Assembly: GCF_030384885.1 (NCBI RefSeq)
Contig: NZ_CP128613.1
DNA length: 64,000 nt
Reading direction: 5' to 3' (one strand)
Source of the DNA: Escherichia coli
GTDB taxonomy: Bacteria; Pseudomonadota; Gammaproteobacteria; Enterobacterales; Enterobacteriaceae
Below, piece by piece: positions 32,355 through 63,416 of the stretch. The position numbers and the translations under genes were made by a program. Numbering within the stretch: position 1 is the first letter of the stretch; the number at the start of each line of letters is the position of its first letter. The notes beneath the pieces are model-generated. The model was given only the letters and a program-made list of their open reading frames with translations. It was not told the origin of the DNA and did not search any database.

Positions 32355-32385
32355 AGAAACGTTAACACACCTTTAAACAAGACAA

Positions 32386-33300: not shown

Positions 33301-35015
33301 GCCATTGATTCCTGCACATGAAGGCTTGCAGCATAACGTTTTTTCGCTTCCGCACGGGCAGGCTTGCCGGAGGACGTTCGGGGAATACTGTGGGGCGGCA
33401 ACAGATCGATAGCCGCTGTTACGCCAAATTCGCTTTGGATCCGTGCTGCCAGTGCGTGGATAAGCTGCCCACGACGTTCTTCGTCGCTGATCCTACACTG
33501 GATCTGCAAAATGATTTTTTCCTGGGCGGTAACAAAAGCAATCGCATCGCCAGAATGAATTTCCGGTTCCTGTTCCGCAATATATTCAATATCCTGCGGC
33601 CAGATATTACGGCCACGAATAATAATCAGATCTTTAATGCGCCCGGTGACATACAGATAACCGTCCAGCAGATAACCGAGGTCGCCGGTATCTAACCAGC
33701 CCGTCGCGGCAATCTCGTCTTGCGAAACCTGGTCGCCAAAGTAACCGCTCATCAGGCTGGGGCCGGAGATGCAAATATGGCCTACCACACGTTCCGCGAC
33801 TGGCATACCTGCTTCATTGCGGATTTCAATGCCATGTTCCGGCAACGCTTTACCGCAGTTGACGAAAGTCGATACGGCGCGTGTTTCAGCACCCGGCGTG
33901 ACGGCTTTGCCCTGATATTCAAGAATGTCGCGATCCACTTCGTTAACCACAACCCCGGAGGCTTCATCAGAGAAGCTGACAGCCAGCGCATTTTCTGCCA
34001 GTCCGTAGCACGGCATGAAAGTTTTATCGTCAAAGTTAACCTGACGGAAACATTCAGCGAATTGATGGAGTTGTTCTGCGGAGATCGGCTCAGCACCAAT
34101 ACCAGCAACGCGCCAGCAGGAAAGATCCAGTTCAGCGAGATCTTTTTCATTCACGCGGCGCTGGCACAATTCATAGCCAAACGGCGGCGCAACGGAAACG
34201 GTGCCGCGATTTTTACTGATCAATTTAAGCCATTGCAGAGGACGCATGGCAAAATCCTGAGTGCGCAAATAATCTACTGAGAGCTGCGTGGCGACGGGGG
34301 TCAGGAGAAAGCCGACCAGTCCCATATCATGGTAGAAAGGCAGCCAGGAGACGCAGCGGTCGCCAGGGCGTAATTTAATGCCATCGTGGCTTATAGCACG
34401 TAGATTAGCCATCACTTCGCGATGGGTGATAATGACGCCACGGGGAAAACGGGTGCTGCCGGAGGTGTACTGGAGGTAGGCGATATCGTTCGGAACTGGA
34501 CGCTGGAGTACAACATCGGCTTCCGGTAATGCCTTAAACCAGGCGTGGCTTAAAACATGTAATTCGGGGTTGTTATGCGTAGCAGCATTGACCAGTGGCA
34601 ACCACTCATCACCAGTGATAATGGCTGCGGGCTGGCAACTTGCCAGTAGACCCTGCAGTTTGGCGCTCCAGGAATCCCGCTGACCGACGCCCATTGGAAT
34701 TGCCAACGGGACGGCGACTAAGCCGGCATACTGGCAGGCAAAAAAAGCCTCTACAAACCCGCTACTCGTTTCGGCAATCAGCGCCACGCGATCGCCTTTT
34801 TTCAGATTCAGTGATAACAACCGCTTCGCACCAGCTTCGGCACGCGCTTTTAACGTCTGATATTCCAGTTGATCTTCAAGTTGGCAACGTCTGTCATAAA
34901 AATTCATTCCGGCGCTACTCAGAGCGGCGTAGTCCAAAGCATCAACCAGCGTTGGAAAATCGGCATAGCGCATAGGTAGGGAATGCGTAAAGATGTTATT
35001 AGACATATACACCAC
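33297..35015 (-). CDS. fatty acyl-AMP ligase / acyl-ACP synthetase (adenylate-forming); start at GTG 35015 or ATG ~35006
   Basis: Track ORF 572 aa; AMP-binding signature YTSGSTRFPRGV, second motif TGDLGY; first gene of the minus-strand operon. Confidence 0.85.
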   Translation of the reverse strand: MVYMSNNIFTHSLPMRYADFPTLVDALDYAALSSAGMNFYDRRCQLEDQLEYQTLKARAEAGAKRLLSLNLKKGDRVALIAETSSGFVEAFFACQYAGLVAVPLAIPMGVGQRDSWSAKLQGLLASCQPAAIITGDEWLPLVNAATHNNPELHVLSHAWFKALPEADVVLQRPVPNDIAYLQYTSGSTRFPRGVIITHREVMANLRAISHDGIKLRPGDRCVSWLPFYHDMGLVGFLLTPVATQLSVDYLRTQDFAMRPLQWLKLISKNRGTVSVAPPFGYELCQRRVNEKDLAELDLSCWRVAGIGAEPISAEQLHQFAECFRQVNFDDKTFMPCYGLAENALAVSFSDEASGVVVNEVDRDILEYQGKAVTPGAETRAVSTFVNCGKALPEHGIEIRNEAGMPVAERVVGHICISGPSLMSGYFGDQVSQDEIAATGWLDTGDLGYLLDGYLYVTGRIKDLIIIRGRNIWPQDIEYIAEQEPEIHSGDAIAFVTAQEKIILQIQCRISDEERRGQLIHALAARIQSEFGVTAAIDLLPPHSIPRTSSGKPARAEAKKRYAASLHVQESMA

Positions 35016-41895: not shown

Positions 41896-44067
41896 ATGAG
41901 TCAAACCATAACCCAGGGCCGTTTACGCATTGACGCCGACTTTAAACGTTTTGTGGATGAAGAAGTTTTGCCTGGCGTGGAACTGGATGCTGCCGCGTTC
42001 TGGCGCAATGTTGATGAGATTGTTCACGATCTGGCGCCAGAAAATCGTCAGTTGCTGGCAGACCGCGATCGCATTCAGGCGGCGCTTGATGAGTGGCATC
42101 GCAGCAATCCGGGGCCGGTAAAAGATAAAGCGGCCTATAAATCTTTCCTGCGTGAACTGGGCTACCTGGTGCCACAGCCTGACCACGTTACGGTGGAAAC
42201 CACGGGCATCGACAGCGAAATCACCAGTCAGGCGGGGCCACAGCTGGTGGTTCCGGCAATGAATGCTCGCTACGCGCTGAACGCGGCGAACGCTCGCTGG
42301 GGATCGCTGTACGACGCGCTATACGGCAGTGACATCATCCCGCAGGAAGGGGCGATGGTCAGCGGCTACGATCCGCAGCGCGGTGCGCTGGTTATCGCCT
42401 GGGTTCGACGTTTCCTCGATGAATCACTGCCGCTGGAAAATGGCAGCTATCAGGATGTGGTGGCGTTTAGCGTGGTCGACAAACAATTACGTATCCAGTT
42501 GAAAAATAGTCAAGAAAGCACGTTACGTACACCGGCACAGTTTGTCGGTTACCGTGGCGATGCCGCTGCGCCAACCTGCATTTTGCTGAAAAATAACGGC
42601 CTGCATATCGAGCTACAAATCGATGCCAACGGGCGGATTGGCAAAGACGATCCGGCGCACATCAACGATGTTATCGTCGAAGCGGCCATCAGTACCATTC
42701 TCGACTGTGAAGATTCGGTCGCAGCGGTTGATGCGGAAGATAAAATCCTACTGTACCGCAACCTGCTGGGCCTGATGCAGGGGACTCTGCAAGAGAAAAT
42801 GGAGAAAAACGGTCGGCAAATCGTGCGTAAACTGAATGACGATCGTCAGTACACCGCCGCCGATGGCTCTGAAATTTCTCTGCACGGACGTTCGCTGCTG
42901 TTTATCCGCAACGTAGGTCATTTGATGACCATTCCTGTGATTTGGGACAGCGAAGGTAATGAAATTCCGGAAGGTATTCTTGATGGCGTCATGACTGGTG
43001 CGATTGCCCTCTACGACTTAAAAGTGCAGAAAAACTCGCGTACCGGCAGTGTTTATATTGTGAAACCGAAAATGCACGGTCCACAGGAAGTGGCTTTTGC
43101 CAACAAACTGTTTACCCGCATTGAGACAATGCTTGGTATGAAACCGAATACCCTGAAAATGGGCATTATGGATGAAGAACGCCGGACCTCGCTGAACTTG
43201 CGTAGCTGTATCGCTCAGGCGAGCAACCGCGTGGCGTTTATCAACACTGGCTTCCTCGACCGTACCGGCGATGAGATGCATTCGGTGATGGAAGCGGGCC
43301 CGATGCTGCGTAAAAACCAGATGAAATCGACGCCGTGGATCAAAGCCTACGAGCGCAATAACGTGCTTTCCGGCCTGTTCTGCGGGCTGCGCGGTAAAGC
43401 GCAAATCGGTAAAGGGATGTGGGCAATGCCGGACCTGATGGCAGACATGTACAGCCAGAAGGGCGATCAGTTACGCGCCGGGGCGAACACGGCCTGGGTT
43501 CCGTCGCCAACTGCCGCTACACTCCATGCGCTGCACTACCATCAAACCAACGTACAGAGTGTGCAAGCCAACATTGCCCAGACCGAGTTCAATGCTGAAT
43601 TTGAACCGCTGCTGGACGATCTGCTGACCATTCCGGTTGCTGAAAACGCTAACTGGTCGGCACAAGAGATCCAACAAGAGCTGGATAACAACGTACAGGG
43701 GATTCTGGGTTACGTGGTGCGCTGGGTGGAGCAGGGGATTGGTTGTTCAAAAGTGCCGGATATTCACAACGTGGCGCTGATGGAAGACCGTGCAACGTTG
43801 CGTATCTCCAGCCAGCATATCGCCAACTGGTTACGTCACGGTATTTTGACCAAAGATCAGGTGCATGCGTCGCTGGAGAACATGGCGAAAGTGGTGGATC
43901 AGCAAAATGCTGGCGATCCGGCATATCGTCCGATGGTCGGGAATTTCGCTAACTCGTGTGCCTTTAAAGCTGCCAGCGATTTGATCTTCCTCGGCGTGAA
44001 ACAGCCAAACGGTTATACCGAACCGTTATTACACGCCTGGCGTTTACGTGAAAAAGAAAGTCATTAA
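41896..44067 (+). CDS. glcB: malate synthase G
   Basis: Track ORF 723 aa [27 protein letters not shown]... Confidence 0.97.
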
Positions 44068-44422
44068 TAGCATCAAAAAAGCCCCGGCAAGTTTTATTGT
44101 CGGGGCTATGATAGTAACTGCGGTAGTATATTTATCCCGGAAATAACCGGGGCGATTATCAGGGTTTAACAATATTAAATACCCGTAGCGCATCACTAGC
44201 GGGACTAAAACAACATTATGGACATCTTTACGATACTCTGCGCCTGTGTGTGCGGAACAGAAACCCTTACCCGATATACTTGTTATGCCAGAGGTAGCAA
44301 TTGCGTTAGCGGCGTGCTGTTGCTGTAAAGTATAACGCCTATATTTTACAGTTCAGTCCTCTTTTGCTTATTACAAACCTTAAATATATCAAGTATATAA
44401 AGATAATAAGAGACTGAACAAT

Positions 44423-46105
44423 ATGGTTACCTGGACCCAAATGTATATGCCGATGGGAGGACTGGGGCTATCCGCTCTGGTCGCCCTGATCCCGATAATA
44501 TTCTTCTTCGTTGCACTCGCGGTATTACGTCTGAAAGGGCATGTTGCTGGAGCAATAACCCTTATATTATCTATCCTGATTGCGATATTCGCCTTTAAAA
44601 TGCCAATTGATATGGCATTTGCTGCTGCGGGCTATGGCTTTATTTATGGATTATGGCCTATTGCGTGGATTATTGTCGCGGCGGTATTCCTGTATAAATT
44701 AACCGTTGCCAGCGGGCAGTTTGATATTATCCGCAGTTCGGTTATCTCCATCACCGATGATCAGCGTTTGCAGGTGTTACTGATTGGTTTCTCCTTTGGC
44801 GCACTGCTGGAAGGAGCGGCTGGCTTTGGCGCGCCGGTGGCGATTACAGGCGCTCTGCTGGTGGGGCTGGGCTTCAAACCGTTATATGCGGCGGGGTTGT
44901 GTCTGATTGCCAACACTGCGCCGGTGGCGTTTGGTGCGTTGGGCGTGCCGATTCTGGTCGCTGGTCAGGTAACGGGAATCGATCCGTTTGATATTGGCGC
45001 AATGGCGGGACGTCAGTTACCGTTCCTGTCGGTTCTTGTGCCATTCTGGCTGGTGGCAATGATGGACGGTTGGAAAGGGGTGAAAGAGACCTGGCCAGCG
45101 GCGCTGGTTGCAGGGGGAAGCTTCGCTGTCACGCAGTTCTTTACCTCTAACTACATTGGTCCGGAACTGCCGGATATTACTTCGGCGCTGGTGAGTATTG
45201 TCTCACTCGCTTTATTCCTTAAAGTCTGGCGGCCGAAAAATACCGAAACGGCAATCAGCATGGGGCAATCCGCAGGTGCGATGGTGGTAAATAAGCCATC
45301 TTCTGGCGGTCCCGTGCCTTCAGAATATAGTCTGGGGCAAATCATTCGTGCATGGTCACCGTTTTTAATCTTAACGGTACTGGTTACCATCTGGACGATG
45401 AAACCATTTAAAGCGTTATTTGCTCCGGGCGGTGCGTTTTATTCGCTGGTGATTAATTTCCAGATCCCTCATTTGCATCAACAAGTGTTGAAAGCGGCAC
45501 CCATTGTCGCCCAGCCAACGCCAATGGATGCGGTGTTTAAATTCGACCCCCTCTCTGCTGGCGGCACCGCTATTTTTATTGCGGCGATTATCTCTATCTT
45601 CATCCTCGGCGTGGGGATCAAGAAAGGTATTGGCGTCTTTGCCGAAACGCTAATTAGCCTGAAGTGGCCGATACTGTCGATTGGCATGGTGCTGGCGTTC
45701 GCCTTCGTCACCAACTATTCCGGTATGTCCACCACGCTGGCGCTGGTACTGGCGGGCACAGGCGTGATGTTCCCGTTCTTCTCACCGTTCCTTGGCTGGT
45801 TGGGTGTATTTCTCACGGGTTCGGATACGTCTTCTAACGCCCTGTTTGGTTCACTGCAATCAACGACGGCGCAGCAAATCAACGTCTCTGACACCCTGCT
45901 GGTGGCAGCAAACACCAGCGGTGGCGTGACCGGCAAGATGATCTCCCCGCAATCTATCGCCGTGGCCTGTGCCGCGACAGGTATGGTGGGTCGAGAATCT
46001 GAACTGTTCCGCTACACCGTGAAGCACAGTCTGATTTTTGCCAGCGTTATCGGCATTATCACCCTGCTGCAGGCGTATGTGTTTACCGGAATGTTAGTCT
46101 CGTAA
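44423..46105 (+). CDS. glcA: glycolate/lactate permease
   Basis: Track ORF 560 aa [29 protein letters not shown]... Confidence 0.95.
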
Positions 46106-46599: not shown

Positions 46600-47592
46600 A
46601 TGAATAAGAAATTTAAATATAAAAAATCGCTTTTAGCGGCTATTTTAAGCGCAACCTTATTAACCGGTTGTGATGGCGGTGGTTCAGGATCGTCCTCCGA
46701 TACGCCGTCTGTAGATTCTGGAGCAGGGACTTTGCCGGAAGTGAAACCCGATCCAATACCAACCCCGGAACCGACACCTGAGCCGACGCCGGACCCAGAA
46801 CCTACACCAGACCCGACACCCGATCCAGAGCCGACACCAGAACCGGAGCCAGAACCTGTTCCTACGAAAACGGGGTATCTGACCCTGGGCGGAAGCCAGC
46901 GGGTAACTGGTGCTACCTGTAATGGTGAATCCAGCGACGGCTTTACCTTTACGCCAGGCAATACCGTGAGTTGTGTGGTGGGCAGTACGACCATTGCAAC
47001 ATTCAACACCCAGTCAGAGACTGCGCGTAGCCTGCGTGCGGTTGACAAAGTGTCGTTTAGCCTTGAGGACGCGCAGGAGCTGGCGGATTCTGCAAATAAG
47101 AAAACCAACGCCATCTCTCTGGTGACGTCCAGCGACAGTTGCCCCGCAGATGCAGAACAGCTTTGTCTTACTTTCTCGTCAGTGGTTGATCGCGCGCGTT
47201 TTGAAAAACTGTATAAGCAAATTGATCTGGCAACAAACGATTTCAGCAAGCTGGTCAATGAAGAGGTGGAAAACAATGCTGCGACTGATAAAGCGCCGTC
47301 CACCCATACCTCAACGGTAGTGCCAGTCACGACAGAGGGAACAAAACCGGATCTGAACGCGTCCTTCGTGTCGGCTAACGCGGAACAGTTTTATCAGTAT
47401 CAACCAACTGAAATCATTCTTTCCGAAGGCCATCTGGTGGATAGCCTGGGGAACGGTGTTGCTGGCGTAGACTACTACACCAATTCAGGCCGTGGCGTAA
47501 CTGACGAAAACGGTAAATTCTCCTTTAGCTGGGGCGAAACCATCTCCTTTGGTATCGATACCTTTGAACTGGGCTCAGTACGCGGCAATAAG
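46600..47592 (+). pseudogene. yghJ: sslE/yghJ lipoprotein mucinase, 5' fragment only (~330 of ~1500 codons), then out-of-context tail to stop at 47664
   Basis: Track ORF 46582..47664; MNKKFKYKKSLLAAILSATLLTGCDGGG lipobox, PEPT-repeat linker, collinear with SslE N-terminus up to ...ISFGIDTFELGSVRGNK, after which similarity stops. Confidence 0.8.
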
Positions 47593-47603
47593 ATCCGCAG
47601 AAA

Positions 47604-47861
47604 ATTTTTAACTATATCCAGCTTACGCCTGTGCGTAAGGAGGGAATTGTCGGTTATGCAGTGAAGCCGGGGGCAGATCGTTCTCTGTTCGATGCCAGCG
47701 GTTTCAGGGAAGGCGATATCGCCATTGCGCTCAATCAGCAGGATTTCACTGATCCACGAGCAATGATTGCTCTGATGCGGCAGTTACCTTCAATGGATTC
47801 CATTCAACTTACGGTTTTACGCAAGGGTGCGCGCTACGACATTTCCATCGCGCTGCGCTAA
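47604..47861 (+). pseudogene. gspC: gspC (T2SS-beta) 3' fragment encoding only the C-terminal PDZ-like region
   Basis: Frame continuing into track ORF 47631..47861 reads ...NYIQLTPVRKEGIVGYAVKPGADRSLFDASGFREGDIAIALNQQDFTDPRAMIALMRQLPSMDSIQLTVLRKGARYDISIALR; no 5' part present. Confidence 0.7.
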
Positions 47862-47890
47862 CCGCATTTAATCCAGGAGAATCATTCATC

Positions 47891-48807
47891 GTGTTTTGGC
47901 GTGATATTACGTTGTCGGCCTGGCGTAAGAAGACAACTGGCCTCAAAACAAAAAAGCGTTTACTGCCGCTGGTGCTGGCAGCGGCATTATGCAGTTCACC
48001 GGTCTGGGCGGAAGAAGCCACTTTCACCGCTAATTTTAAAGATACCGACCTGAAATCGTTCATCGAAACCGTCGGCGCTAACCTTAATAAAACCATCATT
48101 ATGGGGCCGGGCGTACAGGGGAAAGTGAGTATTCGTACCATGACCCCACTCAATGAACGCCAGTATTACCAGCTATTCCTTAACCTGCTGGAAGCACAGG
48201 GGTATGCCGTCGTACCGATGGAAAACGACGTGCTGAAGGTGGTGAAATCCAGCGCCGCGAAAGTCGAGCCGCTGCCGCTGGTCGGTGAAGGCAGCGACAA
48301 CTACGCGGGCGATGAAATGGTCACCAAAGTAGTGCCGGTACGTAATGTGTCGGTCCGCGAACTGGCACCGATTTTGCGCCAGATGATCGACAGCGCAGGC
48401 TCAGGCAACGTTGTTAATTACGATCCCTCCAACGTAATTATGCTCACCGGACGCGCCTCCGTCGTAGAGCGCCTGGCGGTCTGATGGACGATCAGGCGGG
48501 AGAAAGCGTGGCGAAAGTGCCGCTGCTGGGCGATATCCCGTTGATTGGTAACCTGTTTAAATCGACGGCGGATAAAAAAGAAAAACGTAACCTGATGGTG
48601 TTTATCCGCCCGACCATTCTGCGTGATGGTATGGCGGCAGACGGCGTGTCGCAGCGCAAATATAACTATATGCGCGCCGAACAGATCTATCGCGATGAGC
48701 AAGGCTTAAGCCTGATGCCGCACACCGCGCAGCCGATATTGCCTGCGCAAAATCAGGCTCTACCGCCGGAAGTTCGTGCGTTCCTTAATGCCGGGAGAAC
48801 GCGTTAA
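47891..48807 (+). pseudogene. gspD: gspD secretin with large internal deletion/frameshift (N0-domain fragment 47891..48484 plus C-terminal fragment 48484..48807)
   Basis: Track ORFs of 197 aa (signal peptide + N0 domain, ends ...VNYDPSNVIMLTGRASVVERLAV) and 107 aa (secretin C-terminal motif VPLLGDIPLIGNLF) in different frames; intact GspD is ~650 aa. Confidence 0.8.
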
Positions 48808-50300
48808 TGGTGCCTGTAGCACAGGAAACCACTGCTAACACCGTGCGTCTGCCCTACAGTTTCAGCCGTCGGTTTAGCCTGGTGGCATGGTGCGAAGCGT
48901 CGCTGGAGATCCTCCATGTGCATCCGTTGTCGCTCTCTGTTTTGCAGGAGCTGCAACGGGGGCTGAACGCGCCCTTTACGCTGCGGCAAATCGACGAAGC
49001 CGAATTTGAACAGCGGCTGAATGCGGTCTGGCAACGGGACTCTTCCGAGGCCCGCCAGCTGATGGAAGATCTCGGTTCTGCTGAGGACTTTTTTACCCTC
49101 GCGGAAGAACTGCCGGAAACGGAAGATCTGCTGGAAAGTGACGATGATGCGCCGATCATCAAACTGATCAACGCCATGCTGGCAGAGGCGATTAAAGAAG
49201 GCGCTTCGGATATCCACATCGAGACGTTTGAAAAGAGTCTGGTGATCCGTTTTCGCGTTGACGGCACATTACATGAAATGCTGCGTCCGGGGCGCAAACT
49301 GGCCTCGCTGCTGGTATCGCGTATTAAGGTGATGGCACGGCTGGATATCGCCGAAAAACGCGTACCGCAGGATGGGCGCATTGCGCTGCTGCTGGGCGGT
49401 CGGGCGATTGACGTGCGTGTCTCCACCATGCCTTCCGCCTGGGGCGAGCGCGTGGTGCTGCGACTGCTGGACAAAAACCAGGCCCGCCTGACGCTGGAAC
49501 GTCTGGGGTTGAGCCATGAACTGACCGCGCAGTTGCGCCAGCTACTGCACAAACCGCACGGCATCTTTCTGGTGACGGGGCCGACAGGTTCCGGCAAAAG
49601 CACCACGCTGTACGCCGGATTGCAGGAGCTGAACAACCACTCGCGCAACATTCTCACGGTTGAAGACCCCATCGAATACATGATTGAAGGGATCGGTCAG
49701 ACACAGGTTAACACCCGCGTCGGCATGACCTTCGCCCGTGGCCTGCGCGCGATTTTGCGTCAGGACCCGGATGTGGTGATGGTCGGTGAAATCCGCGATA
49801 CCGAAACCGCAGAAATCGCCGTCCAGGCGTCATTGACCGGACACCTGGTACTTTCCACGCTGCATACCAACACGGCGGTGGGGGCGATCACGCGTTTGCA
49901 GGATATGGGCGTTGAGCCTTTCCTGCTCTCTTCCAGCCTGACGGGCGTGATGGCGCAGCGACTTGTTCGCACACTGTGCACCGACTGCCGCCAGCCCGCG
50001 CCTGCCACTGATGAAGAAAAACGCCTGCTGGGAATTACCGATGTGCGTACCGTCACGCTGTACCATCCGCAGGGCTGCCCCGCCTGTAATCACAAAGGTT
50101 TTCGCGGGCGTACTGCCATCCATGAGCTGATCGTGGTAGACGCCACATTGCGTGATTTGATTCACCGTCAGGCCGGGGAACTGGAGCTGGAACGTTATGT
50201 CCGGCAACACTCTGCGGGTATCCGCAGCAACGGCATTGAGAAAGTGCTTGCCGGAGAAACCTCTCTCGATGAAGTGCTGCGGGTAACGATGGAGGCGTAA
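48807..50300 (+). CDS. gspE: type II secretion ATPase GspE (reading frame intact)
   Basis: Track ORF 497 aa; Walker [10 protein letters not shown], tetracysteine CTDC...CPAC motif. Confidence 0.9.
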
Positions 50301-50995
50301 TGGCACTGTTTTACTATCAGGCGTTACAGCGTAATGGTCGCAAAACCAAAGGCATGATTGAGGCGGATTCCGCGCGTCATGCCCGCCAGTTGTTGCGCGG
50401 TAAAGAGCTTATCCCCGTACACATTGAAGCCCGGATGAATGCTTCGTCAGGGGGAATGTTGCAGCGTCGGCGACACGCACATCGTCGTGTGGCGGCGGCA
50501 GATCTGGCGCTGTTCACTCGCCAACTGGCAACGCTGGTGCAGGCAGCAATGCCGCTGGAAACCTGCTTACAGGCGGTCAGTGAGCAAAGTGAAAAACTGC
50601 ATGTAAAAAGCCTCGGAATGGCGCTACGCAGCCGGATTCAGGAAGGTTACACCCTGTCGGACAGCCTGCGCGAACATCCCCGCGTCTTTGACTCCCTGTT
50701 TTGTTCGATGGTGGCTGCCGGAGAAAAATCCGGGCATCTCGACGTGGTGCTCAATCGCCTGGCGGATTACACCGAACAGCGACAGCGCCTGAAATCACGC
50801 CTGCTGCAGGCCATGCTCTATCCGCTGGTACTGCTGGTGGTGGCAACGGGCGTGGTCACTATTTTGCTGACGGCGGTGGTGCCGAAAATTATCGAACAGT
50901 TTGATCATCTCGGACACGCGCTGCCTGCCTCCACCCGCGCTCTTATCGCTATGAGCGACGCGTTGCAGACCAGCGGCGTTTACTGGCTGACCGGT
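50300..50995 (+). pseudogene. gspF: gspF inner-membrane platform protein, 3'-truncated (~230 of ~400 codons); ORF continues into unrelated sequence to 51088
   Basis: Track ORF 50300..51088 262 aa; GspF-like N-terminal cytoplasmic domain and first TM; last ~30 residues non-GspF. Confidence 0.75.
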
Positions 50996-51239
50996 GCCAT
51001 GTATCACGGGCCTGTGCATCCATTAAGGAAAGCATCCCTGAACGTTGCATCAGGTCACGCCAGATTTCGCGATCGAGATTGCGTGTGATGGCTTTCATTG
51101 CGGTTTCCGGTTTCTCCATCAGCCAGCAGCCGCAGCGAAAATCCTGTTTCATGGCCCAGTCCGGGGCGGCTTTACCGCCAATACTTTCTGTCATTGCTGA
51201 TATTTCAGCCAGTTGCCGGATAAGTGTGTCGTGTAGTGG

Positions 51240-52539
<1,300 letters not shown>

Positions 52540-52620
52540 TGATGTGGGGGGAATCTGGTTGAGTTCGGTAGAATTGATTTGGAGGCAGAACGCTTAAATT
52601 GTGGCGTTCTGAAACGAAAA

Positions 52621-52644
52621 ACGGACCTCCGTGGAGGTCCGTTG
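52621..52644 (-). terminator. pheV terminator hairpin
   Basis: aacggacctccgtggaggtccgtt perfect inverted repeat just 3' of the tRNA, followed on the minus strand by ttttcgtttc. Confidence 0.6.
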
Positions 52645-52654
52645 ATATGAATTT

Positions 52655-52730
52655 TGGTGCCCGGACTCGGAATCGAACCAAGGACACGGGGATTTTCAAT
52701 CCCCTGCTCTACCGACTGAGCTATCCGGGC
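52655..52730 (-). tRNA. pheV: tRNA-Phe (GAA anticodon)
   Basis: Reverse complement reads GCCCGGATAGCTCAGTCGGTAGAGCAGGGGATTGAAAATCCCCGTGTCCTTGGTTCGATTCCGAGTCCGGGCACCA, the E. coli tRNA-Phe sequence. Confidence 0.97.
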
Positions 52731-52835
52731 AACGGGGCGCATTAAACCTGATTCGCCTCGTCTCGTCAATCAAATTTCTTCAATTTACTGCAGACTGCAC
52801 AATCTATCATCACTTTGTCGCTATTGCACGCACTG

Positions 52836-53543
52836 TCAGGCAAACCAGGCGGTCCAGGCTGCGGAAAGCGGCATTGCCAGAAGGAGTGCTGGAAGCATGT
52901 TGACCACCGGGAACATTTTAATGCCACAGATGCGTAAGCCGGTTGCCAGCAGCAATAAACCGCCCACGGCGCTGAAGTCTGCCATCATCGACGGTGTGGT
53001 CAGCGGTAATATCAGTGCGGCAGCCCACGCCAGCGTTAACTGGATGATCAGTAATGGAATGCTAATCACCGATACCGCGATGCCCAGTGAGCAGGCGAAG
53101 ATCATTGCCGTAAAAAAATCAAGAAATGACTTGGCGATTAAAATACTCGGATCGCCGGTCATACCTTCGTTCATCGCACCGAAGATCCCGGTGCCGCTGG
53201 CGCAAAACAGGACAATAATCGCGACAAAATTCTGAATAAAAGATTCATGCGCTGGCTTCTTACGTGAGTGACGAAACAGATTTTGTGCTTTGGCGACTGC
53301 TGTATTGACACCTTTCTCCAGCAAACAAATTTCGCCAATTAGAGCGCCAAGTAGCGTAGCTAAAACCATCGCTGGAAGGTTGGCGCATTTCACCACCAGT
53401 AAAATACCAATCCCCAGCGATGCCAGACCAAAAATAGATGTCATGGAGACGCGGATACGTTCCGGTAAACGTTGGCTGAGCAGAGCGCCGATAACGCCAC
53501 CCAGTAAGACTGCACTCGCGTTGATAAAAGGGCCGATGACCAC
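52836..53543 (-). CDS. yqgA: DUF554 inner membrane protein
   Basis: Track ORF 235 aa MVIGPFINASAVLLGGVIGALLSQRLPERIRVSMTS... Confidence 0.9.
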   Translation of the reverse strand: MVIGPFINASAVLLGGVIGALLSQRLPERIRVSMTSIFGLASLGIGILLVVKCANLPAMVLATLLGALIGEICLLEKGVNTAVAKAQNLFRHSRKKPAHESFIQNFVAIIVLFCASGTGIFGAMNEGMTGDPSILIAKSFLDFFTAMIFACSLGIAVSVISIPLLIIQLTLAWAAALILPLTTPSMMADFSAVGGLLLLATGLRICGIKMFPVVNMLPALLLAMPLSAAWTAWFA

Positions 53544-53935
53544 AAGAGTTCCTGTTAACTGTATTGTTTGATTTTCTTATTATGAACTTTTTGCCTTGTT
53601 GATGGCTTGTTTGGTCGCAAAGTCCTGGCTTGCACGCTTTAGCGAAAGGTGCCATGATTGCGCGAATTTTCTCCTCTCTGTACGGAGTTTGCCCGATGCA
53701 CGCCACCTCCTTACATTCTCTCGCTTATCGCCGTTTCGCGCGAAACTCCTCCCTTTTTCTGCTCATGCGGTGAAGTTAACGCACGCTCACTGCAGGACAA
53801 CAGTAAAATCAGAGCGTTTCTGCTTTTACTGATGTCTGGCGGTCGGAGCTGGTGACCAGTTTGACCCATATCTCGTGGGGCAGGGTTTTTCACCTTGTCC
53901 GGTATTCTTACTTCCCCGAAACGGGTTTTGCACTT

Positions 53936-56071
53936 ATGAAATCAATGAATATTGCCGCCAGTAGTGAACTGGTATCCCGACTTTCTACTCATCGCCGCGT
54001 GGTGGCGTTGGGAGATACTGATTTTACGGACGTCGCGGCAGTCGTCATTACCGCTGCGGATAGCCGCAGTGGCATTCTTGCGTTGCTTAAGCGCACCGGT
54101 TTTCATCTACCGGTGTTTTTGTATTCCGAACATGTTGTTGAATTACCCGCGGGCGTTACGGCGGTAATCAACGGCAACGAGCAGCAGTGGCTGGAGCTGG
54201 AATCCGCAGCCTGTCAGTATGAAGAGAATTTGCTGCCACCGTTTTATGACACGCTGACGCAGTACGTTGAGATGGGCAACAGCACCTTTGCTTGCCCTGG
54301 GCATCAACATGGTGCGTTCTTTAAAAAGCATCCTGCTGGTCGTCATTTTTATGATTTCTTTGGCGAGAACGTCTTTCGTGCCGATATGTGTAACGCCGAC
54401 GTGAAACTGGGCGATTTGCTTATTCATGAAGGTTCGGCGAAGGATGCACAGAAATTCGCAGCCAAAGTCTTTCATGCCGATAAAACCTATTTTGTGCTGA
54501 ACGGCACATCGGCAGCGAATAAAGTGGTGACGAATGCGCTATTAACGCGTGGCGATCTGGTGCTCTTCGACCGTAACAACCATAAGTCGAATCATCATGG
54601 TGCGTTGATTCAGGCGGGGGCGACGCCGGTCTATCTGGAAGCTTCACGTAACCCGTTTGGTTTCATTGGCGGTATTGATGCGCACTGTTTTAATGAAGAG
54701 TATCTGCGCCAGCAAATTCGCGACGTTGCGCCAGAAAAAGCAGACCTGCCGCGTCCGTTTCGCCTGGCGATTATTCAGCTGGGAACCTATGACGGCACTG
54801 TCTATAACGCCCGACAGGTGGTCGATACCGTTGGGCATCTGTGTGATTACATTCTGTTTGATTCCGCGTGGGTCGGTTACGAACAGTTTATCCCGATGAT
54901 GGCAGATAGCTCGCCGCTGCTGTTAGAGCTTAACGAAAACGATCCGGGGATCTTTGTGACGCAGTCGGTGCATAAACAGCAGGCGGGCTTCTCGCAGACA
55001 TCGCAGATCCATAAAAAAGATAACCATATTCGCGGGCAGGCGCGTTTTTGCCCGCATAAGCGGTTAAATAATGCCTTTATGCTCCATGCTTCTACCAGCC
55101 CGTTCTATCCGCTGTTTGCCGCGCTGGACGTTAACGCCAAAATTCATGAAGGGGAGAGTGGGCGTCGGCTGTGGGCGGAGTGCGTTGCGTTGGGGATTGA
55201 AGCGCGCAAGGCGATTCTTGCGCGCTGTAAGCTGTTCCGCCCGTTTATTCCACCCGTTGTTGATGGCAAATTGTGGCAGGATTATCCGACGTCAGTGTTA
55301 GCCAGCGACCGTCGTTTTTTCAGTTTTGAGCCGGGGGCGAAGTGGCACGGCTTTGAAGGATATGCCGCGGAGCAGTATTTTGTCGATCCGTGTAAGCTGT
55401 TACTGACCACACCAGGTATTGATGCTGAAACCGGTGAATATAGCGACTTTGGCGTTCCGGCGACGATTCTGGCGCATTATCTGCGTGAGAACGGTATTGT
55501 GCCGGAGAAGTGCGATCTCAACTCCATTCTGTTCTTATTAACGCCGGCGGAAAGCCACGAGAAGCTGGCACAACTGGTGGCGATGCTGGCGCAGTTTGAA
55601 CAGCATATTGAGGATGACTCACCGCTGGCGGAGGTGTTGCCGAGCGTTTATAACAAATATCCGGTGCGCTATCGCGACTACACTTTGCGCCAGTTGTGTC
55701 AGGAGATGCATGATCTGTATGTCAGTTTCGACGTCAAAGACCTACAAAAAGCGATGTTCCGCCAGCAGAGTTTCCCGTCAGTGGTGATGAATCCCCAGGA
55801 TGCGCATAGCGCTTATATTCGCGGTGAAGTGGAGTTGGTGCGGATTCGTGATGCCGAAGGGCGAATTGCGGCAGAAGGGGCTTTGCCTTATCCCCCTGGC
55901 GTGCTTTGCGTGGTGCCTGGGGAAGTCTGGGGCGGGGCTGTCCAGCGTTATTTCCTTGCGCTGGAAGAAGGGGTGAATTTGCTGCCAGGTTTTTCACCGG
56001 AGCTGCAAGGTGTCTATAGCGAAACCGATTCGGATGGTATGAAACGGTTGTACGGGTATGTGTTGAAGTAA
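53936..56071 (+). CDS. speC: ornithine decarboxylase, constitutive
   Basis: Track ORF 53852..56071; start trimmed to MKSMNIAASSELVSRLSTHRRVVALGDTDF (711 aa). Confidence 0.96.
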   Translation: MKSMNIAASSELVSRLSTHRRVVALGDTDFTDVAAVVITAADSRSGILALLKRTGFHLPVFLYSEHVVELPAGVTAVINGNEQQWLELESAACQYEENLLPPFYDTLTQYVEMGNSTFACPGHQHGAFFKKHPAGRHFYDFFGENVFRADMCNADVKLGDLLIHEGSAKDAQKFAAKVFHADKTYFVLNGTSAANKVVTNALLTRGDLVLFDRNNHKSNHHGALIQAGATPVYLEASRNPFGFIGGIDAHCFNEEYLRQQIRDVAPEKADLPRPFRLAIIQLGTYDGTVYNARQVVDTVGHLCDYILFDSAWVGYEQFIPMMADSSPLLLELNENDPGIFVTQSVHKQQAGFSQTSQIHKKDNHIRGQARFCPHKRLNNAFMLHASTSPFYPLFAALDVNAKIHEGESGRRLWAECVALGIEARKAILARCKLFRPFIPPVVDGKLWQDYPTSVLASDRRFFSFEPGAKWHGFEGYAAEQYFVDPCKLLLTTPGIDAETGEYSDFGVPATILAHYLRENGIVPEKCDLNSILFLLTPAESHEKLAQLVAMLAQFEQHIEDDSPLAEVLPSVYNKYPVRYRDYTLRQLCQEMHDLYVSFDVKDLQKAMFRQQSFPSVVMNPQDAHSAYIRGEVELVRIRDAEGRIAAEGALPYPPGVLCVVPGEVWGGAVQRYFLALEEGVNLLPGFSPELQGVYSETDSDGMKRLYGYVLK

Positions 56072-56077
56072 GAATAA

Positions 56078-56112
56078 AAAAACGGGTCACCTTCTGGCGA
56101 CCCGTTTTTCTT
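56078..56112. terminator. hairpin between convergent speC and nupG (bidirectional terminator candidate)
   Basis: aaaaaaacgggtcacc ttct ggcgacccgtttttctt : stem flanked by A-run and T-run. Confidence 0.6.
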
Positions 56113-56119
56113 TGCGTAA

Positions 56120-57376
56120 TTAGTGGCTAACCGTCTGTGTGCCTGTCGGGACACGAACGTGTTTATATTTGAACATCGCCATGAACGCGAAGGCCAGAAT
56201 CACGGAGTAACCTGCGAAAATCAGCCATACGGTCTGCCAGTCGGTAATGCCGTTTTGGGTGTACATCTCAACCACTTTACCGCTCACGATGCCGCCGAGG
56301 ATACAGCCGAAGCCGTTAGTCATCATCAGGAACATCCCCTGCGCACTGGCGCGAATTGCCGGGCTAACTTCTTTTTCGACAAACACCGAACCAGAGATGT
56401 TGAAGAAGTCGAATGCGCAACCGTAAACGATCATCGACAGTACCAGCAGCACGGTACCGAACGGAGTCGGGTCGCCGTAAGCAAACAGCGCAAAACGCAG
56501 GATCCACGCCACGATACTGATCATCATTACGTTCTTAATACCGTAGCGGCTTAAGAAGAACGGGATGGTCAGAATGAACAGGGTTTCAGAGATCTGCGAA
56601 ATCGACATGATGATTGACGCATGCTGCACGATGAAGCTGCTGGCAAACATCGGATCTTTGTCGAAGCTGTGCAGGAAGGTATTACCGAACATGTTGGTAA
56701 TCTGCAGTTCCGCGCCCAGCAGCATTGAGAAGATGAAGAAGATTGCCATACGCTTGTTTTTAAACAGCGCGAATGCGTCGAGGCCCAGCAGGGTTGTCCA
56801 GCTCTGATTCGCTTGCTGTTTAGCAACCGGAATATGCGGCAGAGTCAGGGTAAACAGAACCAGAATGGCGGAAAGGGCTGCGCCAATATATAGCTGCATG
56901 TGGCTTAATTCGAAGCCGGACAGGCTCACCACCCACATTGCCATGATAAAGCCGATGGTGCCCCAGATACGGATTGGCGGGAAGTCAGTAACGATATCCA
57001 TCCCGGCATTTTGCAGGCGATAGTAAGAGATGGTGTTGATTAACCCAAGCGTTGGCATATAAGCAAACGAGTTAATCAATATCACAAGGAACATCGCTTC
57101 CGGCGTCGTGACCTGTGCTGCCATGAACAGCGTGATAGCGCCAATGGTGTGGCAAATGGCATATACCCATTTCGCACTTAACCATTTGTCGGCCACAATC
57201 CCCAGCAGCGCAGGCATAAAGACCGCGGCGATACCCAGTGAGCTATAAACTGCGCCAATAGAAGCACCGTCAAACTTCAGGGTAACAAACATATAGGAAC
57301 CGAGGGTCGTCAGCCAACTTCCCCACAGACAGAACTGCAGAAAAGAGAGGATTTTCAGCTGCAGCTTAAGATTCAT
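56120..57376 (-). CDS. nupG: nucleoside:H+ symporter
   Basis: Track ORF 56120..57424; start trimmed to MNLKLQLKILSFLQFCLWGSWLTTLGSYMF (418 aa). Confidence 0.95.
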   Translation of the reverse strand: MNLKLQLKILSFLQFCLWGSWLTTLGSYMFVTLKFDGASIGAVYSSLGIAAVFMPALLGIVADKWLSAKWVYAICHTIGAITLFMAAQVTTPEAMFLVILINSFAYMPTLGLINTISYYRLQNAGMDIVTDFPPIRIWGTIGFIMAMWVVSLSGFELSHMQLYIGAALSAILVLFTLTLPHIPVAKQQANQSWTTLLGLDAFALFKNKRMAIFFIFSMLLGAELQITNMFGNTFLHSFDKDPMFASSFIVQHASIIMSISQISETLFILTIPFFLSRYGIKNVMMISIVAWILRFALFAYGDPTPFGTVLLVLSMIVYGCAFDFFNISGSVFVEKEVSPAIRASAQGMFLMMTNGFGCILGGIVSGKVVEMYTQNGITDWQTVWLIFAGYSVILAFAFMAMFKYKHVRVPTGTQTVSH

Positions 57377-57577
57377 GTTAATTTCCTCACATCGTGATGC
57401 GGATGAGTGTTTGAAAAAGCACATTTGACCGTGCGAGATGATGCGATTCTATCAACTTCGCAGACTGGTTTTTTGTTACCTGTGGCAAATAATTGCAAAC
57501 ATTCCCAATTTGCAAAACGAAATTGTGATGTGGATAGCATTTTTGCCCCTGAGCATCGTCAGGGGCGGTAAGTGGAA

Positions 57578-58684
<1,107 letters not shown>

Positions 58685-58721
58685 TTATGCAAGTTGCCGG
58701 AGACGTGCTCCGGCACTGTTT

Positions 58722-59000
<279 letters not shown>

Positions 59001-59024
59001 TCATCCTCTTTATCGACTCACGCG

Positions 59025-60077
59025 CTAAACCGGCGCGCCAGTGCGTAACTGCTGTAACAAACGCTCCACGGGAGCCGCCAGGCCAACTGACGGCGGTTGC
59101 GCTAAGTTATACCAGAGCGCATTGCCTTCATCCATGCAGCCGGTGAATGACGACACGGGAAGCCACATAGGCACAATATCTAAGTGGAAATGGCTGAAGG
59201 TATGGCGAAACGCGGTCAGCTGCGTCAGGTTATCGGCAGCAATCTGCCGTTGCGCCAGCCATTGCCGCAAACTTTCTTCATCGGCAAACTGCGGGAAACA
59301 GTATAAACCGCCCCACAATCCGCTCGGCGGACGCTGCGCCAGAAATACTTCATCTTTGTGCTGTAACAGCAGAAAGTAGCCGGTGCGCTCCGGTAGCGTC
59401 TGTTTCGGTTTTTTGCCCGGATAAAGCGACCAGCTATTGTTGGCGGCGGCAATACATCCGTTTTGTAGCGGACAGAGCGAACATTTCGGTTTCGAACGCG
59501 TACAAATCATCGCGCCCAAATCCATCATCGCCTGGTTAAACCGTTCCACGCCAACCGCGGGCGTCACCTGCTCGCTTAAACTCCATAGTTTGTTCTCGAC
59601 CTCTTTTTTCCCAGGCCAGCCGCTTACAGCATAGCAGCGCGCCAGCACCCGTTTGACGTTACCGTCGAGAATCGGAAAGTGCTTACCCAGAGAAAGCGAG
59701 AGAATCGCGCCTGCGGTGGAACGCCCGACGCCCGGCAGTGCTGCAACTTCCTCAAAGGTTTCCGGGAATTTACCGCCGTGTAAGGCCGCCACTTGTTGTG
59801 CCGCTTTATGTAGGTTGCGCGCGCGGGCGTAATAGCCAAGCCCGGTCCACAAGTGGAGAACTTCGTCCAGCGGCGCATTGGCGAGATCGGTCACCGTCGG
59901 GAAGCGCGCCATAAAGCGTTCAAAATAGGGGATAACGGTCGCAACCTGAGTTTGTTGCAACATCACTTCTGAGAGCCATACTTTGTAGGGCGTCTTGTCA
60001 ATTTGCCAGGGCAGAGATTTTCGCCCGTATTTATCGTACCAGTCCAGAACCTGGGCTGAAAATTGCGACGCTTGCAT
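59025..60077 (-). CDS. mutY: adenine DNA glycosylase
   Basis: Track ORF 59025..60107; start trimmed to [20 protein letters not shown] (350 aa); [4Fe-4S] Cys cluster [17 protein letters not shown]. Confidence 0.96.
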
Positions 60078-60237
60078 GGTCACCGAATTCACTGTTGTTG
60101 GGGGCAAGATTGCAGCACAGCGACGGCAGGGTGTAAACCGGAACTTTCCGCAGCCACGGCCTTATCATGCTTGCATCCGGCAACTAACTTTGGATAATGC
60201 CCGTTTTCAGAACACTTTCACAAGCGACTAAATCTTT

Positions 60238-60957
60238 ATGAAAAACGACGTCATCTCACCGGAATTTGATGAAAACGGCCGCCCACTGCGCCGTATCCGT
60301 AGTTTTGTGCGCCGCCAGGGGCGACTGACCAAAGGCCAGGAACATGCGCTGGAAAACTACTGGCCGGTGATGGGCGTTGAGTTCAGCGAAGATATGCTGG
60401 ATTTCCCTGCGCTTTTTGGCCGTGAAGCGCCGGTGACGCTTGAGATTGGTTTTGGCATGGGGGCGTCGCTGGTGGCAATGGCTAAAGATCGCCCTGAGCA
60501 GGACTTCCTCGGCATTGAAGTGCATTCACCAGGCGTTGGTGCGTGCCTGGCTTCTGCGCATGAAGAAGGCTTAAGCAACCTGCGCGTGATGTGTCATGAT
60601 GCGGTTGAAGTGCTACACAAAATGATTCCTGACAATTCATTGCGCATGGTGCAGCTCTTTTTCCCTGACCCGTGGCACAAAGCGCGCCATAATAAACGCC
60701 GTATCGTTCAGGTGCCGTTTGCCGAACTGGTAAAAAGCAAACTGCAACTGGGTGGCGTATTCCATATGGCGACCGACTGGGAACCTTATGCGGAACATAT
60801 GCTTGAAGTGATGTCTTCTATTGACGGTTATAAAAACCTGTCAGAGAGCAATGATTACGTACCGCGTCCGGCATCACGTCCGGTGACGAAATTTGAACAA
60901 CGTGGTCATCGTCTTGGTCACGGAGTATGGGACTTAATGTTCGAGAGGGTGAAATAA
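60238..60957 (+). CDS. trmB: tRNA (guanine-N7)-methyltransferase
   Basis: Track ORF 239 aa [43 protein letters not shown]... Confidence 0.95.
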
Positions 60958-61283: not shown

Positions 61284-61296
61284 GAAAGCATACGGG

Positions 61297-61405
<109 letters not shown>

Positions 61406-61466
61406 GTACTTTGTTATCAATCTGGGGCCAGCAAATGCTGGCCTGATTTGTTCTTGAGGGAAGACT

Positions 61467-62186: not shown

Positions 62187-62361
62187 TCCTCTATTTTAAG
62201 ACGGCATAATACTTTTTTATGCCGTTTAATTCTTCGTTTTGTTACCTGCCTCTAACTTTGTAGATCTCCAAAATATATTCACGTTGTAAATTGTTTAACG
62301 TCAAATTTCCCATACAAAGCTAAGGGATAATGCGTAGCGTTCACGTAACTGGAGGAATGAA

Positions 62362-63408: not shown

Positions 63409-63416
63409 TCACCTCG

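What the first reader, a model, noticed from the sequence alone, without database searches (positions are those of the whole stretch)
46600..47861. sslE (yghJ) is truncated after ~330 codons and joined to the 3' end of gspC: deletion of sslE 3' part, pppA, yghG and gspC 5' part
The reading frame reproduces the SslE lipoprotein N-terminus (lipobox, PEPT-repeat linker) up to ...FGIDTFELGSVRGNK, then similarity ends. About 10 nt later another frame encodes only the C-terminal ~85 residues of GspC. Expected intervening genes (rest of the ~1500-codon sslE, prepilin peptidase pppA, pilotin yghG) are absent. The junction is at about 47592-47605 (hand-derived). This removes the secreted mucinase substrate and essential T2SS-beta parts in one event.
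Basis: partly seen in the sequence, partly recalled or inferred. Interest (0 to 1): 0.55.

Follow-up and report, generated by a model that had tools for sequence, protein, structure and literature searches.

The report
Deletion scar fusing sslE to gspC
A 5.8-kb deletion has cut the E. coli mucinase gene sslE after codon 331 and joined it out of frame to the last 89 codons of gspC; it is one of three deletions that wrecked this secretion locus in one small lineage, which is an ordinary, well-known kind of gene loss.

Summary
The window is collinear with Escherichia cryptic clade I strain 2013C-4282, which has an intact sslE-pppA-gspS2-gspC..M locus. The flanks are 99.99-100% identical. Relative to that strain, 5,849 bp are missing. 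sslE nt 993 (codon 331 of 1519) is joined to gspC nt 683, with a 3-bp microhomology (AAG, window 47590-47592). The sslE frame then runs 23 out-of-frame codons to a stop at 47662-47664. The gspC remnant is codons 229-317, in another frame. There is no IS element, repeat or leftover sslE sequence at the junction. The same junction occurs on 14 independent public contigs, so it is not an assembly artefact. It occurs in none of 5,426 complete RefSeq E. coli genomes.

The locus carries two further deletions: 1,144 bp inside gspD, and about 22 kb from gspF to a DUF4942 remnant beside pheV. The second removes gspG-M and the kps capsule cluster. Only gspE remains intact. A sister configuration has the sslE-gspC deletion with intact gspD, gspE and gspF, so decay was stepwise.

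Independent losses of T2SS-beta are already documented (K-12, Crooks), and more were seen here. This is a new deletion allele of a known kind, of low interest.

The parts
46600..47592 (+). sslE 5' remnant: codons 1-331 of 1519. It keeps the signal peptide with lipobox LLTGC, the PEPT-repeat linker, domain NT1 and the first part of NT2.
   Evidence: NCBIfam SslE profile 1-332/1519. 331/331 identity to SslE of 2013C-4282. Domain limits taken from PMC8881592.
47590..47592 (.). Deletion 1 junction: AAG, a 3-bp microhomology present at both parental breakpoints. 5,849 bp are missing relative to 2013C-4282 (5,752 bp relative to strain muskdeer13-4).
   Evidence: BLAST coordinates overlap by 3 nt. 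Three-way junction alignment.
47593..47664 (+). Out-of-frame tail of the truncated sslE ORF: 23 codons plus a TGA stop, read from gspC-derived DNA.
   Evidence: ORF list. BLASTP similarity to SslE ends at residue 331.
47592..47861 (+). gspC 3' remnant: codons 229-317 plus stop (the C-terminal PDZ-like part). It lacks the N-terminal transmembrane and HR regions.
   Evidence: Translation. 89/89 identity to GspC residues 229-317. NCBIfam GspC profile 244-319/319 and weak PDZ-protease hits.
47891..48479 (+). gspD 5' fragment (nt 1-589 of 2061).
   Evidence: NCBIfam type_II_gspD profile 1-148/600. BLAST to intact loci.
48471..48479 (.). Deletion 2 junction inside gspD. 1,144 bp are missing, which shifts the frame. 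The exact microhomology is TG, lying within an imperfect 7/9 repeat.
   Evidence: the latter uses the same allele in L004, which lacks this deletion.
48480..48807 (+). gspD 3' fragment (from about nt 1734 to the stop).
   Evidence: NCBIfam gspD profile 545-599/600. BLAST.
48807..50300 (+). gspE, a 497-codon ORF of full length. It is the only intact T2SS-beta gene left.
   Evidence: ORF list. Same length as annotated gspE in intact loci. 52 synonymous and 5 non-synonymous codon differences from 2013C-4282.
50300..50989 (+). gspF 5' fragment (nt 1-690 of 1224).
   Evidence: NCBIfam GspF profile 1-230/401. BLAST.
50988..50989 (.). Deletion 3 junction (2-bp microhomology TG). 22,152 bp are missing relative to 2013C-4282: the gspF 3' end, gspG-M, the two ABC transporter genes annotated in 2013C-4282, a HAD hydrolase gene, the kpsF-S capsule genes and an IS110 remnant. 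Alternatively, 1,526 bp are missing relative to an L004-type progenitor.
   Evidence: Annotation of the missing stretch.
50990..51230 (-). Remnant of a DUF4942 pseudogene belonging to the pheV-side island.
   Evidence: 100% match to 2013C-4282 record positions 4420984 onward. Annotation.
51240..52417 (-). IS3-family element, also present at the same place in 2013C-4282. It is not at any deletion junction.
52655..52730 (-). tRNA-Phe (pheV), the hypervariable integration site that borders the locus.
   Evidence: ARAGORN, Rfam, annotation.

Best explanation
This is a genuine, lineage-specific chromosomal deletion scar in the sslE/T2SS-beta locus of an Escherichia cryptic clade I strain closely related to 2013C-4282.

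Shown:
- One event removed 5,849 bp, from sslE nt 994 to gspC nt 682. This took out the NT3 and M60 (HExxH mucinase) parts of SslE, the prepilin peptidase PppA, the pilotin GspS-beta (YghG) and the N-terminal two thirds of GspC.
- The two ends share only AAG, and nothing foreign lies between them.
- What remains is a 354-codon ORF (331 SslE codons plus 23 out-of-frame codons) behind an unchanged sslE upstream region, and a promoterless gspC tail.
- Two further deletions (gspD internal; gspF to the pheV side) leave only gspE intact. This locus therefore cannot encode the mucinase or a working T2SS-beta.

Inferred:
- The most likely mechanism is RecA-independent illegitimate recombination at short microhomology, such as replication slippage or misjoined ends.
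- Decay was stepwise. A sister configuration (L004) carries the identical sslE-gspC junction but still has full-length gspD, gspE and gspF.
- After the first inactivating hit, the remaining genes were probably free to decay.
For: - Collinearity with 2013C-4282: window 1-47592 is 99.987% identical and 50988-64000 is 100% identical, with three gaps between them.
- Junction alignments show microhomologies of 3, 2 and 2 bp.
- Protein-level identity of both remnants to their intact counterparts is 100%, and NCBIfam gives only partial profile coverage.
- No direct or inverted repeats or IS ends lie at the junction. The nearest IS is 3.6 kb away and is shared with the intact strain.
- The exact 354-aa product is encoded on 14 contigs from independent assemblies (NCBI GCA_904842275.1 and Logan runs including SRR16760859 and SRR34489103). 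The 71-nt junction string (47560-47630) is identical in all three loci fetched, L004, L005 and L006.
- L004 has deletion 1 with intact gspD, gspE and gspF and a different gspG-side deletion.
- The intact gene order sslE-pppA-gspS2-gspC..yghD is seen in muskdeer13-4 and 2013C-4282.
- The literature reports that T2SS-beta sits beside the hypervariable pheV site and has been lost independently several times, and that pppA is needed for SslE secretion (PMC3707838). Mucinase activity needs the M60 metallopeptidase motif (PMC4014459).
Against: - A 3-bp microhomology is only weak evidence for a mechanism. Under a random-junction model, 3 bp or more is expected about 5% of the time, and 2 bp or more about 16% (my calculation).
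- The order of deletion 1 relative to the gspG-side deletion cannot be determined, because every contig that carries deletion 1 also lacks gspG-M.
- The rest of the genome is not available. The missing genes could exist elsewhere, and a second T2SS (alpha, or plasmid-borne) may be present.
- No expression data exist for the truncated ORF.
Confidence: 0.88

Rival explanations
1. Artefact: an intact sslE with a sequencing frameshift, or a misassembled or collapsed contig.
For: None found.
Against: The sequence after 47592 is gspC and gspD DNA, with no mismatch to 2013C-4282 from 47590 to 47918, and is not sslE. The same junction is present on 14 contigs from independent assemblies, in two different downstream configurations.
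Confidence: 0.01
2. IS-mediated deletion. An IS1 (or other IS) inserted in the locus made an adjacent deletion, as in E. coli E41, where sslE (1035 nt), IS1 and a gspC 3' fragment (567 nt) are adjacent. A second deletion then removed the IS together with a little more of both flanks.
For: E41 has an IS1 exactly between a truncated sslE and a truncated gspC, and the window's endpoints lie just outside E41's on both sides. IS1 elements are annotated next to sslE, gspS2 or gspC in many genomes.
Against: There is no IS sequence, terminal inverted repeat or target duplication at the window junction. E41 belongs to a different lineage (about 90% identity over the query), and its configuration is unique to one genome. 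This route needs two events where one suffices.
Confidence: 0.05
3. The deletion was not made in this lineage. It was imported by homologous recombination from a donor that already carried it.
For: A recombination tract lies next to it. The retained gspD-gspF DNA differs from 2013C-4282 by 100 substitutions in 3.4 kb, and about 85-90% of the differing codons are synonymous, while the flanks are essentially identical.
Against: DNA on both sides of this junction is essentially identical to 2013C-4282: 5 substitutions and one 1-nt indel in 47.6 kb on the left, and none in the first 329 bp on the right. Dense divergence starts only at 48349. No other genome or metagenome searched carries the junction.
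Confidence: 0.05
4. Adaptive remodelling rather than neutral decay. The truncated 354-aa lipoprotein (lipobox, linker, NT1, partial NT2) is kept as a functional product, or loss of the immunogenic SslE together with the kps capsule was selected.
For: The sslE upstream region and ORF start are unchanged relative to the intact strain. The truncated ORF is identical on all 14 contigs. NT1 is an independently folding domain (PMC8881592). Deleting sslE or gsp gave a small urea-tolerance advantage in E. coli W (PMC3707838).
Against: The carriers differ by only about 0.02-0.03%, so conservation of the ORF says nothing about selection. NT2 is cut in the middle, and the tail is 23 random out-of-frame residues. 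Without a T2SS-beta the lipoprotein cannot be exported to the surface by its normal route.
Confidence: 0.05

Closest known systems
E. coli K-12 T2SS-beta remnant (yghJ/sslE-pppA-yghG-yghF-yghE-yghD)
   Same: Same chromosomal locus between glcA and pheV, with a clean internal deletion that inactivates T2SS-beta (PMC3707838). In the K-12 derivative DH1, gspC is followed directly by a gspL fragment.
   Different: K-12 lost gspD-K but keeps full-length sslE, pppA and gspS2. The window lost the sslE 3' end, pppA, gspS2 and the gspC 5' end, plus part of gspD and everything from mid-gspF to gspM.
E. coli E41 (NZ_CP069707.1) sslE-IS1-gspC configuration
   Same: Almost the same set of genes is removed (sslE 3' part, pppA, gspS2, gspC 5' part), and the endpoints lie within about 40 and 300 nt of the window's.
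   Different: An IS1 sits at the E41 junction, and its gspD-I are intact. It is a different lineage and an independent event. The window junction has no IS.
Other independent sslE truncations in complete genomes: CUVET19-1942 (sslE nt 546 joined to gspJ) and 38I23CPO002 (sslE nt 543 joined to pppA; gspE joined to gspM)
   Same: The sslE 5' remnant is fused directly to a downstream gsp or pppA fragment with no IS annotated. They show that this locus decays repeatedly.
   Different: Different breakpoints, different partners and different lineages.
Intact sslE-T2SS-beta locus of Escherichia cryptic clade I strain 2013C-4282 (stx1-positive; PMC10100065)
   Same: The flanks are 99.987-100% identical and the gene order is the same. 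It is the nearest available progenitor-like state.
   Different: All 14 genes are intact, as is the kps cluster. Its gspD-gspG allele differs from the window's by about 3%.

Membership tests
SslE/AcfD lipoprotein M60 zinc metalloprotease (NCBIfam NF037973 / NF037974) | N-terminal signal peptide with lipobox cysteine | tested here: met
   MNKKFKYKKSLLAAILSATLLTGC is identical to intact SslE.
SslE/AcfD lipoprotein M60 zinc metalloprotease (NCBIfam NF037973 / NF037974) | Full-length match reaching the curated whole-protein cut-off | tested here: not met
   702 bits against a cut-off of 3000. Only profile positions 1-332 of 1519 are covered.
SslE/AcfD lipoprotein M60 zinc metalloprotease (NCBIfam NF037973 / NF037974) | C-terminal M60-like domain with the HExxH...E motif required for mucinase activity (PMC4014459) | tested here: not met
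   Similarity ends at residue 331. The M60 domain lies at about residues 1000-1500. No sslE 3' DNA was found anywhere in the window.
GspC (T2SS inner-membrane component) | Complete protein: N-terminal transmembrane segment, HR domain and C-terminal PDZ-like domain, with a score above the curated cut-off | tested here: not met
   Only residues 229-317 of 317 remain. The score is 168 bits against a cut-off of 561.
Functional T2SS-beta operon (sslE-pppA-gspS2-gspCDEFGHIJKLM) | All core genes present and intact | tested here: not met
   pppA, gspS2 and gspG-M are absent. gspC, gspD and gspF are fragments. Only gspE is full length.
Microhomology-mediated (illegitimate) deletion | Parental sequences share a few identical bases at the breakpoint, with nothing inserted | tested here: met
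   AAG is shared at both breakpoints, and BLAST segments overlap by 3 nt. This is weak statistically: about 5% expected by chance.
IS-mediated adjacent deletion | An IS end (or remnant) abuts the junction | tested here: not met
   No IS sequence or inverted repeat lies at 47590-47592. The only IS in the region is at 51240-52417 and is shared with the intact strain.
Deletion by homologous recombination between long repeats | Direct repeats of tens of bases or more at both breakpoints in the progenitor | tested here: not met
   The junction alignment shows only 3 identical bases.

The most novel reading that the evidence does not exclude
The loss is not neutral. In a shallow sublineage of Escherichia cryptic clade I, the immunogenic surface mucinase SslE, its secretion machine and the kps capsule were shed in quick succession under selection. 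The surviving 354-aa lipoprotein (NT1 plus half of NT2, behind an untouched sslE upstream region) would still be made and would have a role of its own.
Probability: 0.06. Interest if true: 0.35.

Novelty: new member of a known kind. Interest (0 to 1): 0.15.

Why it matters
It matters mainly for annotation and typing. This lineage should be scored as SslE-negative and T2SS-beta-negative (and, from the 22-kb deletion, kps-negative), even though a 354-codon 'sslE' ORF and an intact gspE would be picked up by gene-presence screens. SslE is a vaccine candidate, so truncated alleles that keep only the N-terminus are relevant to coverage estimates. Otherwise it is one more example of the recurrent decay of a locus next to pheV.

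Tried and rejected
1. An exact-match scan for the 30-nt junction in GTDB species-representative genomes and in JGI metagenome contigs gave 0 hits each. The source genome was therefore not identified, and the junction is rare.
2. An exact look-up of the 354-aa product in the 15-billion-protein collection did not find it, although look-up of encoding contigs did find 14 contigs.
3. A Pfam scan of the truncated product gave only a low-complexity hit (Trypan_PARP) on the PEPT linker, so no Pfam domain covers NT1 or NT2.
4. The repeat search and the promoter/terminator scan around the junction gave nothing informative.
5. I tried to decide which lineage carries the recombinant gspD-G tract. The window/L004 allele has its best outside match at 98.4% and the 2013C-4282 allele at 97.8%. 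The window allele's distance to other clade I strains (1.6-2.1%) is nearer the flank distance (1.2-2.0%). This leans weakly towards 2013C-4282 being the recombinant, but it is not decisive.
6. The IS1-intermediate idea prompted by strain E41 found no IS trace, and E41's configuration is unique to one genome.
7. The apparent mismatches just right of the L004 gspG junction lie in the first ~25 nt of the BLAST alignment, which runs into an imperfect homology there, so they do not mark a recombination boundary. The 2 mismatches and 2 gaps were not located individually.

Full report
**What is in the sequence**

The + strand of the window carries glcB (41896-44067) and glcA (44423-46105). An ORF follows that starts at the ATG at 46600 and ends at a TGA at 47662-47664. 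NCBIfam places its first 332 residues on positions 1-332 of the 1519-position SslE model, with 702 bits against a whole-protein cut-off of 3000. The first 331 residues are 100% identical to residues 1-331 of the intact SslE of E. coli 2013C-4282. Similarity then stops, and 23 unrelated residues follow. From 47592, in another frame, 89 codons plus a stop are 100% identical to GspC residues 229-317 of 317. Three details need small corrections: the junction is at 47590-47592, there is no 10-nt gap, and 89 GspC codons remain rather than about 85.

**Defining the deletion**

I used two intact reference loci, strain muskdeer13-4 and strain 2013C-4282. Both have the gene order glcA, sslE, pppA, gspS2, gspC, D, E, F, G, H, I, J, K, L, yghD. 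The whole window is collinear with 2013C-4282:

| Window | 2013C-4282 record | Identity |
|---|---|---|
| 1-47592 | 4340853-4388443 | 99.987% |
| 47590-48479 | 4394290-4395179 | 98.3% |
| 48471-50989 | 4396315-4398833 | 96.6% |
| 50988-64000 | 4420984-4433996 | 100% |

Deletion 1 removes 5,849 bp: sslE nt 994 to its end, pppA, gspS2 and gspC nt 1-682. The parental sequences read ...GCAATAAG|TCGACT... and ...GGCGAAAG|ATCCGC..., and the window reads ...GCAATAAGATCCGC.... The exact microhomology is therefore AAG, with no inserted bases. No repeats or IS ends lie near the junction. BLAST of the whole window against the intact locus found no other copy of the missing DNA, only 33-37-nt REP-like matches.

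**The deletion is real and rare**

None of 5,426 complete RefSeq E. coli genomes has a match that spans the junction. All hits to a 601-nt query centred on it cover one side only. Exact-match scans of GTDB representative genomes and JGI metagenome contigs also found nothing. Even so, the exact 354-aa product is encoded on 14 contigs from independent assemblies, and the junction string is identical in the three loci I fetched. This rules out a one-off assembly error or a frameshift in an intact gene.

**The rest of the locus**

Two more deletions lie downstream.

- **Deletion 2** is inside gspD, joining nt 589 to nt 1725. It removes 1,144 bp and shifts the frame, leaving ORFs of 197 and 107 codons that match the two ends of the GspD profile. 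Compared with the same allele in L004, which lacks this deletion, the exact microhomology is TG inside an imperfect 7/9 repeat.
- **Deletion 3** joins gspF nt 690 to the inside of a DUF4942 pseudogene next to an IS3-family element and pheV, with a 2-bp microhomology. Relative to 2013C-4282 it removes 22,152 bp: the gspF 3' end, gspG-M, the two ABC transporter genes annotated there, a HAD hydrolase gene, the capsule genes annotated as KpsF, KpsE, kdsB and other capsule biosynthesis or export proteins, and an IS110 remnant.

Only gspE (497 codons) is still full length.

**Order of events**

L004 (NCBI GCA_904842275.1) has the identical sslE-gspC junction and the same gspD-F allele (99.96-99.98% identical to the window). 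It differs in having full-length gspD, gspE and gspF and a different right-hand deletion, from gspG nt ~210 to a point 782 bp upstream of the window's right breakpoint. L005 and L006 have the window's configuration. Counting the similar places that were not shown, 4 contigs are of the L004 type and 10 of the window type.

Deletion 1 is shared, so it is older than deletion 2. The window's deletion 3 encloses the L004 deletion on both sides. It is either a 1,526-bp secondary deletion on an L004-type background or an independent 22-kb event. The two options cost the same number of events, and I cannot choose between them. Nor can I order deletion 1 against the gspG-side deletion.

**A recombination tract**

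The retained gsp DNA is far more diverged from 2013C-4282 than the flanks are. There are 100 substitutions in 3.4 kb, against 5 substitutions and one indel in 47.6 kb on the left and none in 13 kb on the right. In gspE, 52 differing codons are synonymous and 5 non-synonymous, and 51 of 60 changes are at third positions. This is allelic divergence under purifying selection, so it reflects homologous recombination with another functional allele rather than pseudogene decay. Dense divergence starts at 48349, whereas the first 329 bp to the right of the deletion 1 junction are identical. Both alleles are unique in the complete-genome set, with best outside matches of 98.4% and 97.8%. Which lineage is the recombinant stays open.

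**Organism**

2013C-4282 is listed among the completely sequenced, stx1-positive strains of Escherichia cryptic clade I (PMC10100065). The other close matches to the flank include EC42405, which that paper also lists, at 98.1%. The window therefore comes from a very close relative of 2013C-4282 in clade I.

**Consequences**

These follow from established knowledge plus what the sequence shows. SslE comprises a lipobox, a disordered linker, NT1 (mature residues 67-211), NT2 (230-425), NT3 (426-1000) and an M60 metalloprotease domain (PMC8881592). Mucin degradation needs the metallopeptidase motif (PMC4014459). The remnant keeps the lipobox, the linker, NT1 and less than half of NT2, so it cannot be a mucinase. 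PppA is required for SslE secretion (PMC3707838), and it is gone along with the pilotin, most of GspC, the secretin core, half of GspF and all the pseudopilins. This locus cannot encode a working T2SS-beta. Whether the 354-codon ORF is expressed was not tested. Its upstream region is essentially identical to that of the intact strain: the six differences in the left flank all lie upstream of position 39,053.

**Mechanism**

All three junctions are clean, with 3, 2 and 2 bp of microhomology and no mobile element. This fits RecA-independent illegitimate recombination. It is an inference, because microhomologies this short are only modestly above chance (3 bp or more is expected in about 5% of random junctions, by my calculation). 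I considered an IS1-mediated route because E. coli E41 has an IS1 exactly between a truncated sslE (1035 nt) and a gspC 3' fragment (567 nt). The window has no IS trace, however, and the E41 configuration is unique to one unrelated genome.

**Comparison with what is known**

Independent losses of T2SS-beta have been described. K-12 has an internal gspD-K deletion, Crooks has had the locus replaced, and O157:H7 is also reported to lack the SslE-secreting T2SS. The proximity to hypervariable pheV has been proposed as the reason (PMC3707838). I confirmed the K-12-type scar in DH1 and found further independent scars:

- CUVET19-1942: sslE nt 546 joined to gspJ.
- 38I23CPO002: sslE nt 543 joined to pppA, and gspE joined to gspM.
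- E41: sslE, IS1, gspC.

The window's deletion is thus a new allele of a known, recurrent kind of event. The literature I searched contains no report of this particular junction.

**Verdict**

It is an ordinary reductive event of low interest (0.15). Its practical value is for annotation and for SslE-based vaccine-coverage or virulence-gene typing.

Noticed in passing
window 47891-48807 (junction 48471-48479): gspD carries its own internal 1,144-bp frameshifting deletion (nt 589 joined to nt 1725). It is absent from the sister configuration L004, which shares the sslE-gspC junction, so it is a later event.
   Followed up: yes
window 50988-50989: A 22,152-bp deletion relative to 2013C-4282 joins gspF nt 690 to a DUF4942 pseudogene beside IS3 and pheV. 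Besides gspG-M, it removes the whole capsule cluster annotated in 2013C-4282 (KpsF, KpsE, kdsB and other capsule biosynthesis or export genes, plus ABC transporter genes), so this lineage probably lacks that capsule.
   Followed up: partly
window 48349-50989: The retained gspD-gspE-gspF DNA is 96.6-98.3% identical to 2013C-4282, while both flanks are 99.99-100% identical. Most differing codons are synonymous, which indicates a homologous-recombination tract. Neither allele has a match above 98.5% in 5,426 complete genomes, and which lineage is the recombinant is unresolved.
   Followed up: partly
L004 (GCA_904842275.1) 14279-14294: The sister configuration has a different right-hand deletion, from gspG nt ~210 to 782 bp upstream of the window's right breakpoint. 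Its junction lies at an imperfect homology of about 19 nt (GGATAAC-GGG-CGTTATG against GGATAACAGGGATGTTATG). The window's deletion encloses it on both sides.
   Followed up: partly
window 29028 (ORF 28753-29823, +): The only indel between the window and 2013C-4282 in 47.6 kb of left flank is a 1-nt difference in an lptF paralog. The ORF is intact here (356 codons) but is annotated as frameshifted in 2013C-4282.
   Followed up: no
window about 25978-35015: An accessory cluster lies between yghS and yghO, shared with 2013C-4282 and muskdeer13-4. It comprises a lipopolysaccharide biosynthesis protein, a YtfJ-family protein, second copies of lptF and lptG, serine palmitoyltransferase (spt), an acyl carrier protein, an epimerase and a fatty acyl-AMP ligase. 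This looks like a sphingolipid-like lipid synthesis and export module.
   Followed up: no
L009 (CUVET19-1942) 5201-5949; L010 (38I23CPO002) 6201-7309: Two unrelated complete genomes have sslE cut at almost the same place (nt 546 and nt 543) but joined to different partners (gspJ and pppA). This may be a deletion-prone spot in sslE.
   Followed up: no
window 52299-52421 (-) and 44122-44343 (-): Rfam matches above the gathering score: isrC Hfq-binding RNA (145 bits), overlapping the outer end of the IS3-family element on the pheV side, and C0719 sRNA (283 bits) in the glcB-glcA spacer. Both are also present in the intact relative and are unrelated to the deletion.
   Followed up: no
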